Below, piece after piece: positions 10,209-58,615 of a stretch of DNA of 64,000 nt (position 1 is its first letter; every line of letters begins with the position of its first letter). The stretch is from Pocillopora damicornis (lineage: Eukaryota). The DNA lies in the NCBI RefSeq assembly GCF_003704095.1, contig NW_020847516.1, positions 310,001 through 374,000 of the forward strand, in the 5' to 3' direction. The position numbers and the translations under genes were made by a program. The notes beneath the pieces were generated by a model. It searched no databases, was not told the origin of the DNA, and worked only from the letters and a program-made list of their open reading frames with translations.

Positions 10209-13200
10209 ATGAAGATCGTATCATTGGTTTTGATCTTCGGATTGTTTGCAGTGGGGTTTTCACGGCCTTCCGAAAGTAAGTTAACCTCATCCCTAACGTA
10301 GTTTGAGTACGATCACTACACCGAGCAGAGTGATCTATATTACAACCTGGGATTGCTGGTGTCTTCTGTGATCTGGGAAGGTCTCGTGTGTAAGCCTCTA
10401 CTCACTGGCTTAGTCGTACCTTATCTAAACCTAAGATCTAGCTGAGCTAAGCTCCGAGATTTGTTTTAACTTTCCTTGGTTCCAAAATCGTGGACAGTGA
10501 TATGCTTTAACAAGTTAATGTTTAAGAAATGTTGACACTCCACAGTAACAGCCACCCGTCAACTTTTTACCTTGCTCAAGCCTTCTCTGGACGAATCTTT
10601 ATTTCATAAAACCATTTTCCAAGTGTTACGAATGCGTTTGAAACTTTGTTCCATAATCGTCCTTCATCGCTCAAGTTCCTAATTCTCCAGTGGATCTATA
10701 AATTAACTATTACAATTTTTTTTAAAAAAAAAACTATATTAAAAAACAACGATTCTTGCTGATTGAAAACTGAAGATATGGACGGATCGCAAAAAGCCTG
10801 TCTCCTTTTTTTCATTACTTCATGTGTGGAACAGCATTTGCGGAAATTAATCCAGCCGGATTTTGATCTTTTGTATGTTTTTCAGACTATAACTTGTCAC
10901 TAACTTTCAACGTGAGATCATTCAAGCAACGCAAAACACAATCAACCGAGTCAGAGTTTTACACGGTTTATACCTTCTGTGATTTCCAGTATCGCAAGAA
11001 CAACATTTTCATTCATCCATGAAATTTCTGAATTAAAAGTTTCATCGGAAACGGAAAGTTAATACTATGTCACTTTGATATACGCTAATAATGATCTTCT
11101 GAGGCGTTCACCACACCCAAAAATTGTATTTTTAGACAACCCTAAACACCTTGCTAATTCAAAGCTCTCTAAATGCAAAACGTAGAATCAAAATCTAGGG
11201 CCTTTAGGAGGATAGGTTTTTTTTTTGGTTGTATTGAATTCTACCCTGAGTTTTACTAAGTGTACAATTCCTATGATTTTTGAAAGGTAATAACAACCTT
11301 TCCGTGGCCCATTGACAGAGTTAAAGGACCTTAATTTCATCATAAAATCATGTCTAGCCACCACAACCGTAGGTGAGAAAAAATGGTTGGTTTTGACCAA
11401 ATTTAGAACGCATTCAGCCGCAAAAATTAGAAGTTTGTCTTAATTTATTTTTAAGCATATTCTGTCAAAAGGGCCATTTACATCAACCAACAAACTCTCA
11501 AATTGATGTTTTTCGGACGCTAAAGGAAACACGAATAATTATCAAATATTAGGTTTCTTATGAATCTCAGGAAGAAAGAAACGAGACGAAACAAAAATAA
11601 ATGTATGTATAAATATCTTTAAAGCTCAAAGTTCGCTTTTACCATATATCTTGTGAGAAGGAAGTGAAGAAATGATCTGAAAACATCATGTTAGGAACAC
11701 AAACATATGTATATCTTATTTGTTTGTGTAGAAAAAGCCAAAGCTGTGGAAATAGTGGATGAGTCTGATAGAGAACTTATCCGAGTTGCCAGGGGAGATG
11801 TAGAGGATGAGGAACCTAAACAGAAAGCTCACCTCGAAAAGAAGAGATCCACTGAAGGTAAGTTTAACGTGAAAACAACACTGTCATGCACCAGTTTAAG
11901 AAAGGTAACTGTGTTTTTTCTTCTTTGCTCAGAGATCAAACGGAATAAAAGAGCCGCAGAGGAAGGTAAGTTTGTAAGTTTGTAGGTGTCTTCGTTGATT
12001 TTTTCTCATAGGGATTTTTCAGTCCCCATCAAACTAAGGGTGGTTTATTGCATTGATGAACATACATAGACATTGGAACAACTTGGTCCTTATTGTCTTG
12101 GCACACCTGCATATTATTGTTCAAATGGGCCTATCTCGCCCGCTCGAGTAGCTAATCAGAAAACAGGATTTGCCTTCATATTACCTACGAGCGCTGCCAG
12201 CGATTTATTAAATTGAGTTCTGACGCCACGAGACAGTGCAGAGCACCATCAGTTGAGTGTAGAGGTAAATCTCCGGCTCCACCTGATCTGTTGAAAAGCA
12301 AACAAAGGCTTTTAATTCAGAGGGTAAAACTTTTCATACAAACAATTTCGTTTAGGTTATATCATGTTATACTTTCCCTACAGACGCTTTCTTTCAAGCT
12401 CTTCTGACGCGAGCGGCAGACAAGAAAACAGGTGAATAACTGGATTTTATTCAGTTCGCTTTATAAGCTCTCAATATTTGCACCGTACCTGTAAAATTTT
12501 ATAATTTTCCGTCTTTCCTTTTTAGAAAAAAAGAGGTCTTTTGATGATGGTGCTGACAACACAGGTACAAACTTTCATCCATTCTTTTTCAGCCAATGGG
12601 TTGTCCACGTTTATTTTTTCAAAATAAATTGAAGAAAGCTAAGCGAGGGGAAAATTTTACATCAGACTGAATTGTGAAAAGATTCGACAAGGATGCACGC
12701 GAAGATTTAGTAAGCTTACCCAAAGACTCTTTGGGTAAGCTAACGGACGGAGACCGGAAATTGCAAATTTATCTGGGACACGTTGATATCAGCGTATATG
12801 CAAGAAAGTCCTTTCCAAAATGAGTACCATACCTCAGGGAAAATAACTCTCTACTTCCGACCGCCAGCCTCGTCTCCAAAACGTGTTTGCTTTGGTTCCC
12901 TGTTGAGTCCAGAACAGAAGTCGTACTCTTGAATTAACGGTATTTATAAACGTCGCTTGTGTTTGTTAGACGTCATGCAGATGCAGCAGAGCATAGCTTA
13001 CTGAAGTGATTCAAGACATAGCTTTGATGTGTTGGACTATTTTTATCCTCCTACCACTAATTTATTTATTTATTTATTTGTATGTTGTTGCTGTTGTTTC
13101 ACTAGGATATATAATCCGAGATGATTGGAAGGGAGACTCAAAAATTTCAGATGCTGACAGGCAGGGTAAGTTCTCTTGATTAAATCAAGGAACAGAGAGG

Positions 13201-58300: not shown

Positions 58301-58615
58301 TCAGGTACTAATTAGATTCTGATTTTCTTTTAATGCTTCATGTAATTAGGTAGGATCACCGAAGTAAAAAAAGAAATGATAAAGTTTGCCCAAGAGCACC
58401 CAGGTGACAAGGAAAGCATTCGTGCAGAAGCAATCAAAAGATTGGAGGATGTAGTTGAGAAACTTCCTCTCAGAAAGGCAACCATTGAAGCTCAAGAACA
58501 CAAACTAAAGAGATCCCCCATGCTCCAGCAAATTGTTGCTTCTACAAGCAAAAGAGAATTGAGAGAAAGAATCAGAAGAGCTTTAGCTGATTTTATTGCT
58601 GAGGACGTCGCATGA
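46325..58615 (+). CDS. Secreted hyper-acidic Glu-Ser-Gly-repeat polyprotein (~1407 aa, 18 exons) with repeated KRxxIP sites and a helical C-terminal domain
   Basis: Exon 1 (46325-46388) encodes the signal peptide [21 protein letters not shown]. Further exons: 49412-49456, 49541-49612, 50356-50679, 51000-51248, 51553-52080, 52379-52609, 52855-53109, 53430-53840, 54233-54376, 54666-54920, 55204-55542, 55734-56344, 57002-57056, 57325-57392, 57524-57590, 58027-58266, 58350-58615. All are GT-AG and in phase (sum 4224 nt). Confidence 0.85.
47451..47545 (+). repeat. Dispersed repeat family copy with a decayed hammerhead motif
   Basis: tttgacgaaggtctaacgctccaaacgtccgctttagaaactctttacggcggccaatttac is the reverse orientation of the 39518-39770 family, with a mutated core. 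Confidence 0.65.
49792..50020. mobile_element. MITE-like element with TIRs agggccgtagc / gctacggccct
   Basis: 11-bp perfect terminal inverted repeats plus subterminal gacgaggc / gcctcgtc. About 230 bp and non-coding; no clear target-site duplication. Confidence 0.7.
50125..50278 (-). mobile_element. Degraded tRNA-derived SINE-like relic
   Basis: Minus strand: tagtggcctcacggtcagtgg..ggactcc (A-box-like head) ... ttgggcaaaaaatttactc...agtgcctctcc...ccacccaggagtgttaatg. Homologous to 34815-34970. Confidence 0.55.
55272..55487 (+). repeat. Coding 9-bp tandem repeat (24 x Glu-Ser-Gly) with a 90-bp higher-order duplication
   Basis: GAR-AGY-GGN x24. 55290-55379 is repeated at 55380-55469. Confidence 0.92.

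What the first reader, a model, noticed from the sequence alone, without database searches (positions are those of the whole stretch)
10209..58615. Co-oriented trio of unusual secreted-protein genes sharing SGE motifs, with KRxxIP in the two flanking genes: a candidate secretory/matrix gene cluster
Three consecutive + strand genes sit between two housekeeping genes (POC5, RNF180). Each starts with an MK signal-peptide exon ending in phase 1. The SEA/WSC gene and the ESG gene share the identical hexapeptide KRNVIP (~23423 and ~51211), ESGE runs, SGSGE, many dibasic sites and a helical C-terminal region. Even the LOX-like protein begins DDSFSGEFPGSGE. Both flanking genes have three CCAAT/ATTGG boxes within ~230 bp of the ATG (10013/10060/10094 and 46094/46144/46207). 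Inference: a co-expressed module for one secretory product, combining a polyanionic scaffold, a glycan-binding adaptor and a lipid-binding pseudo-enzyme. Candidates are skeletal organic matrix, mucus/adhesive, cnidocyte or granin-like dense-core granule matrix.
Basis: partly seen in the sequence, partly recalled or inferred. Interest (0 to 1): 0.75.

Follow-up and report, generated by a model that had tools for sequence, protein, structure and literature searches.

The report
Cnidarian acidic polyprotein pair plus pseudo-lipoxygenase
Three real neighbouring coral genes for secreted proteins: the outer two are likely ancient duplicates of an undescribed family that reaches from corals to Hydra and is predicted to be cut into acidic, sugar-chain-bearing pieces, the middle one is a lipoxygenase with an altered iron site, and whether the three work together is untested.

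Summary
The three genes are real and splice cleanly: A (SEA/WSC, ~1257 aa), B (EGF plus lipoxygenase fold, 687 aa, identical to a Pocillopora damicornis RefSeq protein) and C (1392 aa, 101 ESG triplets, 11 [KR]RxxIP sites). A and C look like distant paralogues: a profile of C's C-terminal helical domain scores 19.2 bits on A's (0 of 2200 shuffles reach it), and two introns fall on the same aligned codons. C has orthologues in Hydra, Hydractinia and Clytia, so the family predates coral skeletons. B has Lys in place of the first iron His in 15 of 15 homologues, anemones included, and carries acidic Ser-Gly sites at its N-terminus. A and B share a scaffold in 6 of 7 named coral genomes. The triple CCAAT argument fails: the upstream housekeeping gene has it too. 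Best reading: convertase-processed, chromogranin/serglycin-like glycosaminoglycan core proteins, expanded in this coral. No expression data were reachable, so co-expression and the cell type remain open.

The parts
10209..26249 (+). Gene A: 29 exons, ~1257 aa; signal peptide, dibasic-rich N-terminal part, Q/P-rich Cys-containing linker, SEA, WSC, acidic Ser-Gly region with one KRNxIP, C-terminal helical domain
   Evidence: Model; 82% identical over full length to transcript-derived P0018; Pfam SEA 1.2e-6 and WSC 1.4e-19 on P0018
19089..19355 (+). WSC-domain exon of gene A
   Evidence: Pfam PF01822 E 2.1e-21
17362..18105 (+). SEA-domain exons of gene A (three exons)
   Evidence: Pfam PF01390 on orthologues P0018 and P0026; the single window exons alone gave no hit
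23226..23756 (+). Acidic exon of A with invariant DESGD, KRNVIP (23423) and three ESGE
24648..26249 (+). Last three exons of A: helical domain that aligns with the C-terminal domain of gene C
   Evidence: 19.2 bits with the C profile, 0 of 2200 shuffles; introns on the same aligned codons; long helices in the model
33364..33532 (+). Conserved non-coding block 350-510 nt upstream of the gene B start; candidate regulatory element
   Evidence: 131 of 171 nt identical with L005 9174-9337
33876..41750 (+). Gene B: 12 exons, 687 aa; signal peptide, acidic Ser-Gly tip, EGF, unique segment in place of PLAT, lipoxygenase fold with K380/H385/H568/T572/T687 at the iron-ligand positions
   Evidence: 100% identical to P0032 = XP_027058331.1; Pfam EGF and Lipoxygenase; alignment to 3vf1
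46325..58615 (+). Gene C: 18 exons, 1392 aa, 29.2% D+E, pI 4.06, 101 ESG, 11 [KR]RxxIP
   Evidence: residues 1035-1392 are supported by homologues P0079, P0015, P0014; the repeat exons rest on splice signals and frame only
49412..49612 (+). Exons 2-3 of C: ~20-residue N-terminal motif followed by a dibasic site, nearly invariant from coral to Hydra, Hydractinia and Clytia
   Evidence: P0174, P0185, P0186
51000..55542 (+). Eight symmetrical phase-1 exons of C, each ending 9-14 codons after a KR site (KRxxIP in 7 of 8); seven hold ESG repeats
   Evidence: Ser codons in the repeats use both TCN and AGY classes
57524..58615 (+). Last three exons of C: conserved helical domain with no Pfam family and no PDB fold match
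10011..10100 (.). CCAAT boxes upstream of A (two full NF-Y consensus); ordinary promoter feature
46092..46211 (.). CCAAT boxes upstream of C (one full NF-Y consensus); ordinary promoter feature

Best explanation
Genes A and C are likely ancient duplicates of an undescribed cnidarian family of secreted acidic Ser-Gly polyproteins, predicted to be cut at their KR sites and to carry glycosaminoglycan chains or phosphates, and would then serve as the polyanionic matrix of a secretory product in the way chromogranins and serglycin do. Shown: the gene structures, the motif counts, the conservation of C's two ends from coral to Hydra, the profile match and shared intron positions between A and C, the altered iron site of B, and linkage in corals. 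Inferred: (1) a proprotein convertase cleaves C after its 11 [KR]R-xxIP sites, releasing ten or more pieces of 45-184 residues with net charge -5 to -54 and one conserved helical C-terminal domain; (2) the acid-flanked Ser-Gly sites are xylosylated (chondroitin-type), or phosphorylated as S-x-E, since SGE fits both rules (rules recalled); (3) the pieces condense Ca2+ and water in secretory granules and after release; (4) A is the derived copy that gained SEA and WSC as a glycan-binding adaptor; (5) B is a secreted, probably non-oxygenating lipid-binding lipoxygenase that bears the same kind of Ser-Gly site. I put paralogy at about 0.85, KR processing at about 0.8, glycosaminoglycan attachment at about 0.55, and B as a co-expressed partner at about 0.35.
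For: Paralogy: 19.2 bits over profile positions 63-218; top shuffle 16.9, reversed 1.1, other helical controls 3.5 or less; HHalign score 27.4 against 0 of 60 block shuffles; last three introns phases 0,1,1 in both genes, penultimate exons 192 and 195 nt, both bordering introns on the same aligned codons. Age: hydrozoan orthologues E 9e-20, 2e-15, 7e-9 in 1.84 billion proteins. Ser-Gly sites: 116 of 125 SG in C and 10 of 11 in A are acid-flanked; hydrozoan orthologues have 38 of 43, 13 of 21, 12 of 20; one SGSG-type site and DESGD are kept in 10 of 10 orthologues of A; 9 of 10 B homologues have SG just before the EGF domain, Nematostella does not. ESG is written with both Ser codon classes, pointing to selection on the peptide. 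[KR][KR]S-x-IP recurs in all three hydrozoan orthologues. No G-dibasic amidation signal in A, B or C. Context from passages: Hydra cuticle chondroitin had no large core protein, small attached peptides not excluded (PMC3531485); chromogranin A is a secretory-granule proteoglycan (PMC8724862).
Against: No expression, proteomic or glycan data were seen. The A-C match is weak: it did not surface in the blind profile search (0 orthologues of A among the 23 hits), pairwise BLASTP gave E 7.3, HHalign on the full-length alignments gave P 0.058, the reverse profile (A on C family) reached only 8.3 bits, and both domains are helical with composition bias. No homologue of A outside stony corals was found (10 hits; search limited to shared exact words). 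No named anemone orthologue of A or C was found. SGE fits phosphorylation as well as xylosylation. The repeat exons of C are not confirmed by a transcript.
Confidence: 0.5

Rival explanations
1. The trio is one co-expressed module for a single secretory product, with B as a physical or functional partner of A and C.
For: A and B on the same sequence in 6 of 7 named coral genomes, consecutive locus numbers in Orbicella; B with C and A with C on equal-length contigs in four unnamed assemblies; all three secreted with acid-flanked Ser-Gly sites; a 14-mer shared by the A and B upstream regions, a length reached by 2 of 564 random pairs.
Against: Triple CCAAT also at the housekeeping neighbour; the 14-mer has no match within 2 mismatches in the orthologous B upstream region L005, and C shares a 13-mer with the housekeeping promoter; in Nematostella an old model joins B to a zinc-finger protein; no trace of A in the 9.7 kb upstream of B in L005; local gene order is often conserved among hexacorallians anyway (one example in PMC8382919), and no control for neighbouring genes could be run.
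Confidence: 0.35
2. C (with or without A and B) has been co-opted as a skeletal organic-matrix protein, a Glu/Ser/Gly-rich stabiliser of amorphous calcium carbonate.
For: C meets the CARP composition rule of >28% D+E and pI <5 (29.2%, 4.06; rule in PMC4878875); its acidity and ESG count exceed the hydrozoan orthologues (18.5-22.9% D+E; 3-16 ESG against 101), the pattern reported for co-opted CARPs (PMC8382919); Glx/Ser/Gly-rich proteins are cited as ACC stabilisers (PMC5951882); a Desmophyllum skeleton held eight lipoxygenases and seven unnamed acidic proteins (10.64898/2026.03.24.713908).
Against: The family exists in non-calcifying Hydra and Clytia and B in anemones; no SEA/WSC or EGF-lipoxygenase protein was named in the passages I saw of two Acropora skeleton proteomes; C lacks the RGE motif and the robust-coral restriction reported for CARP2. 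Proteome tables were in supplements I could not see.
Confidence: 0.2
3. The family is a cnidocyte product: the core protein of the chondroitin associated with nematocyst assembly.
For: Distribution seen so far is cnidarian only; a non-sulfated chondroitin in nematocyst tubulation is known (title only, in a reference list); cnidocytes express dozens of secreted proteins (PMC8162421); A has a Q/P-rich, Cys-bearing linker.
Against: No expression data; the same features fit gland or epithelial secretion; C has one Cys only, in its signal peptide.
Confidence: 0.2
4. B is an active lipoxygenase-type enzyme with a remodelled metal site and is only a bystander between two duplicates.
For: H385 kept in 14 of 15, H568 in 14 of 14 with a residue there, and the C-terminal NSxST in 15 of 15; 59-61% identity between coral and anemone shows strong constraint.
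Against: First iron His is Lys in 15 of 15 and the Asn position is Thr in 14 of 14; the distant homologue L003 also has Asn for the second His; no PLAT domain.
Confidence: 0.25
5. C is a neuropeptide precursor whose active products are the repeated xxIP peptides.
For: Repeated KR-xxIP units, one per exon.
Against: No G-dibasic amidation signals, no second cleavage site close behind the motif, pieces of 45-184 residues.
Confidence: 0.07

Closest known systems
Granins (chromogranin A/B, secretogranin II)
   Same: Signal peptide, acidic, many dibasic sites, conserved ends around a variable acidic middle (layout recalled); chromogranin A carries chondroitin/dermatan sulfate (PMC8724862 passages).
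   Different: No granin Pfam match for A, C or their orthologues; far more Ser-Gly sites; exon-sized repeat modules; expression unknown.
Serglycin and nematode CPG-type chondroitin proteoglycans (recalled)
   Same: Secreted core proteins dense in acid-flanked Ser-Gly sites.
   Different: ESG triplets broken by KRxxIP sites; a conserved helical C-terminal domain; no sequence comparison was run.
Coral acid-rich proteins (CARP2, CARP6) and the 'acid-rich collagens' of PMC4878875
   Same: C is secreted, Glu-rich, 29.2% D+E, pI 4.06, and passes the Pfam Collagen cut-off (29.5 against 27.2 bits), so its orthologue could be among the five acid-rich 'collagens' counted in Stylophora (not checkable).
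   Different: Gly-Glu-Ser triplets with almost no Pro; no RGE; orthologues in hydrozoans; never shown in skeleton.
Vertebrate acidic Ser-rich phosphoproteins (DMP1, DSPP; recalled)
   Same: 124 S-x-E sites in C; the Clytia orthologue is auto-named dentin sialophosphoprotein-like.
   Different: The name is compositional; no homology tested or expected.
Coral 8R/11R-lipoxygenases and the AOS-LOX fusion
   Same: Lipoxygenase fold, E 4.9e-41 to 3vf1 over residues 257-685; databases name B 'allene oxide synthase-lipoxygenase-like'.
   Different: Signal peptide and EGF instead of PLAT or AOS; first iron His is Lys, Asn is Thr; the database name is a misnomer.

Membership tests
Granins | Signal peptide, acidic composition, multiple dibasic sites | tested here: met
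   (signal peptide by eye)
Granins | Sequence homology to a granin family | tested here: not met
   No such Pfam family on window exons, full-length orthologues or 23 aligned members
Granins | Storage in dense-core granules; Ca2+/low-pH aggregation | not testable with these tools
   No expression or biochemical data
Glycosaminoglycan proteoglycan core protein | Conserved Ser-Gly sites with acidic flanks in a secreted protein | tested here: met
   (rule recalled; counted as SG with at least 3 D/E in 12 flanking residues)
Glycosaminoglycan proteoglycan core protein | Xylose-linked chain shown on the protein | not testable with these tools
   Needs glycoproteomics
CARP/SAARP skeletal proteins | >28% D+E and pI <5 | tested here: met
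   C 29.2%, pI 4.06; A (16.7%) and B (15.1%) do not meet it
CARP/SAARP skeletal proteins | Present in skeleton or calicoblasts; precipitates CaCO3 | not testable with these tools
   Proteome and atlas tables lie in supplements that were not available
CARP2 | RGE motif; confined to robust corals | tested here: not met
   No RGD/RGE in C; orthologues in hydrozoans; no direct sequence comparison with CARP2 was possible
Lipoxygenases | Lipoxygenase catalytic fold by sequence | tested here: met
   Pfam 7.6e-35; PDB matches
Lipoxygenases | Three His, Asn/His and C-terminal carboxylate as metal ligands | tested here: not met
   His1 is Lys in 15 of 15; Asn is Thr in 14 of 14
Lipoxygenases | Fatty-acid dioxygenase activity | not testable with these tools
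   Needs assay
AOS-LOX fusion | N-terminal catalase-related AOS domain | tested here: not met
   Only EGF and Lipoxygenase on 687 aa
Collagens | Gly-X-Y repeats | tested here: met
   Pfam Collagen 29.5 bits on exon 55734-56344
Collagens | Pro-rich X/Y positions and a known trimerisation domain | tested here: not met
   Pro 2.4%, repeats are Gly-Glu-Ser; no such Pfam domain
Cnidarian neuropeptide precursors | Short repeated peptides with Gly-dibasic amidation signal | tested here: not met
   0 G[KR][KR] in A, B, C
Known helical folds (C-terminal domain of A and C) | Structural match above background | tested here: inconclusive
   Models of pTM 0.22 and 0.32; no Foldseek match at E 0.001; best Z 7.9, rmsd 8.4, 101 aligned

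The most novel reading that the evidence does not exclude
A pan-cnidarian, convertase-processed chondroitin proteoglycan precursor family, the unidentified carrier of cnidarian cuticle or nematocyst chondroitin, sits in corals in a co-regulated three-gene cluster with its own glycan-binding paralogue and a secreted pseudo-lipoxygenase, and was expanded in acidity for use in calcifying or mucus granules.
Probability: 0.2. Interest if true: 0.8.

Novelty: new variant of a known kind. Interest (0 to 1): 0.5.

Why it matters
Cnidarian chondroitin has been found in the Hydra cuticle without a large core protein (PMC3531485), and I found no report of a cnidarian granin. This family offers named candidates in Hydra, Hydractinia, Clytia and corals, all with atlases and genetic tools, so the question becomes directly testable. 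The coral copy shows a strong gain in acidity over its hydrozoan orthologues, a test case for co-option into calcification. B is a highly conserved secreted lipoxygenase-fold protein with an invariant His-to-Lys change, mis-named in databases as AOS-LOX, which affects how coral oxylipin gene counts and expression results are read.

Tried and rejected
No genome was held for the window. Complex prediction of the A and C C-terminal domains gave no verdict (score 0.00 against a mark of 0.34, alignments not used): no evidence either way. ESM Atlas gave no usable hit for either domain. Fold searches found only generic helices. Five look-ups of earlier scan findings returned nothing. Accession searches in full text found 0 papers; ESG-repeat search listed 37 papers, none on cnidarians by title; searches found no description of these genes. 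Rfam: 0 matches. Metagenome scan: 8 loci of B, only L005 with a long upstream flank and none with more than about 1.3 kb downstream of the match; none held A or C. Rejected: CCAAT boxes as co-regulation evidence; shared promoter words; C as collagen; C as CARP2; B as AOS-LOX; SxIP as an EB1-binding motif (recalled motif; the protein is secreted, the flanks are acidic and S varies with N); exon candidate 24819-24858 of A (phase does not fit, absent from orthologues). Supplementary tables of atlases and proteomes could not be seen and bear directly on cell type and skeletal presence.
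Full report
Gene models. Reading the window and splicing by coordinates gave three open + strand genes with GT-AG introns: A 10209-26249, B 33876-41750, C 46325-58615. A 12-nt micro-exon at 20101-20112 brings A to 29 exons and about 1257 aa and matches its orthologues. 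B is 100% identical over 687 aa to XP_027058331.1 of Pocillopora damicornis. A is 82% identical to a full-length transcript-derived protein. For C, residues 1035-1392 are supported by homologues and the N-terminal motif by hydrozoan proteins; the repeat exons rest on splice signals and frame alone. Gaps between coding ends are 7.6 kb (A-B) and 4.6 kb (B-C).

Checking the motifs. KRNVIP is in both A and C as stated. A and C share four hexapeptides; shuffled A shares none in 873 of 1000 trials and never four. But A has three ESGE against 82 in C, and the hexapeptide varies among 10 orthologues of A (2 KRNVIP, 7 KRNDIP, 1 KRNVVP). The six CCAAT boxes exist, yet the housekeeping gene upstream has three within 130 nt of its start, two of full NF-Y consensus. 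Shared upstream words were at or near noise: a 14-mer between A and B (2 of 564 random pairs reach 14) is not kept in an orthologous region, and C shares a 13-mer with the housekeeping promoter.

Gene C. It is 21% Glu, 19% Ser, 11% Gly, 29.2% D+E, pI 4.06, with 101 ESG triplets. Eight successive phase-1 exons each end 9-14 codons after a KR site, KRxxIP in seven, so the gene grew by duplicating an exon module. The repeats use both serine codon classes, some exons one class only (24 of 24 AGY; 13 of 13 TCN), which points to selection on the peptide. A profile of the C-terminal domain run over 1.84 billion proteins gave 23 hits, including full-length proteins of Hydractinia (E 9e-20), Hydra (2e-15) and Clytia (7e-9). 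These keep a roughly 20-residue N-terminal motif almost unchanged, a dibasic site behind it, acid-flanked Ser-Gly sites and [KR][KR]SxIP motifs, but have 18.5-22.9% D+E and 3-16 ESG. The family is therefore older than coral skeletons, and this coral copy is much more acidic. The domain has no Pfam family and its helical model (pTM 0.32) matched nothing above background.

A and C as paralogues. Pairwise BLASTP of the C-terminal parts gave nothing (E 7.3), and HHalign of the full-length alignments gave P 0.058. With trimmed alignments that include the hydrozoan members, HHalign scored 27.4 over 120 columns, against 15 for reversed profiles and 0 of 60 block shuffles. The C profile scored 19.2 bits on the window's own A terminus; 0 of 2200 shuffles reached it (top 16.9), and other helical controls scored 3.5 or less. 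Independently, the last three introns have phases 0,1,1 in both genes, the penultimate exons are 192 and 195 nt, and in the profile alignment both bordering introns fall on the same aligned codons. Against this, the reverse profile reached only 8.3 bits and no orthologue of A was among the 23 blind hits. I put paralogy at about 0.85. A adds SEA and WSC. Its 10 hits are all coral-like, but that search needs shared exact words, so absence elsewhere is not shown.

Gene B. Signal peptide, acidic tip, EGF, a unique segment, then a lipoxygenase fold. Against 11R-lipoxygenase 3vf1 the first iron His aligns with K380, the second and third His are kept, the Asn is T572 and the chain ends in Thr. In 15 aligned homologues the Lys is invariant, Thr is in 14 of 14 with a residue there, and the distant homologue L003 (43-47% identity to the rest) also has Asn for the second His. 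Orthologues at 59-61% exist in Nematostella, Exaiptasia, Actinia and Actinostola. Nine of 10 homologues carry Ser-Gly just before the EGF domain in an otherwise divergent stretch. A non-oxygenating role is likely but not shown, since two His and the carboxylate remain.

Linkage. In Nematostella an old model runs from B into a zinc-finger protein. L005 holds no part of A in 9.7 kb upstream of B, close to the spacing here. No control for general gene-order conservation could be run, so linkage is real but does not show co-regulation.

Mechanism. The shared feature is an acid-flanked Ser-Gly, which by recalled rules is both a xylosylation site and, as S-x-E, a secretory kinase site. With KR cleavage C would yield pieces of 45-184 residues with net charge -5 to -54 and up to 25 SG each, plus the conserved domain. 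There is no amidation signal. This is the layout of chromogranins and serglycin without sequence kinship. Passages of PMC3531485 report Hydra cuticle chondroitin with no large core protein but possibly small peptides, which such a precursor would explain; passages of PMC8724862 describe chromogranin A as a granule proteoglycan. A skeletal role stays open: C meets the CARP composition rule (PMC4878875 passages), Glx/Ser/Gly-rich proteins are linked to amorphous carbonate (PMC5951882 passages), and a skeleton proteome lists eight lipoxygenases and seven new acidic proteins (bioRxiv 10.64898/2026.03.24.713908 passages).

Literature seen. Passages only: PMC8162421, PMC4890752, PMC12549020, PMC12960093, PMC11876637, PMC3748352, PMC8086859, PMC8382919 and those named above. 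Abstract and outline only: PMC13581030. Adamczyk 2010: title in a reference list only (49). No supplement was seen; atlas and proteome tables there could settle cell type and skeletal presence. Accession and motif searches found no description of these genes.

Verdict. The single-product module is possible but unproven (about 0.35). Interest 0.5; new variant of a known kind.

Noticed in passing
window 3650-5713, - strand: Intronless ORF of at least 640 aa with a split Roc domain (Pfam 6.5e-16) and a hydrophobic middle, lying antisense between exons of the upstream housekeeping gene; it runs into an N gap at 3678-3777.
   Followed up: partly
window 20736-21748: Perfect 503-nt inverted repeat with a 7-nt loop in an intron of gene A; each arm holds a ~124-codon frame that looks like a GIY-YIG/Penelope-type fragment by recall. 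Could be a young element or an assembly fold-back.
   Followed up: partly
window 33364-33532; L005 9174-9337: Conserved non-coding block upstream of gene B, 77% identical between two corals.
   Followed up: partly
L003 126-2210: Distant full-length homologue of B (43-47% identity) with signal peptide, DSGE tip and EGF, in which two of the three iron His are replaced.
   Followed up: partly
window 11732-11857: RGD at residue 43 of gene A, directly after RVAR; present in several orthologues, RED in one. May be only a cleavage-site context.
   Followed up: no
window 20101-22316: Four micro-exons of 12, 27, 21 and 21 nt in gene A encode a nearly invariant short helix-like stretch.
   Followed up: partly
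window 60848-61027: Perfect 22-nt tandem repeat, 8.2 copies, downstream of gene C.
   Followed up: no
window 27943-28122, 35852-35969, 39523-39762, 47453-47548: Copies of a short dispersed repeat also present in L005, likely a non-autonomous transposon.
   Followed up: no
window 8463-8700: A possible extra exon of the upstream housekeeping gene between the 7718-8065 and 8930-9110 exons; its stop lies about 1.1 kb before the start of gene A.
   Followed up: no
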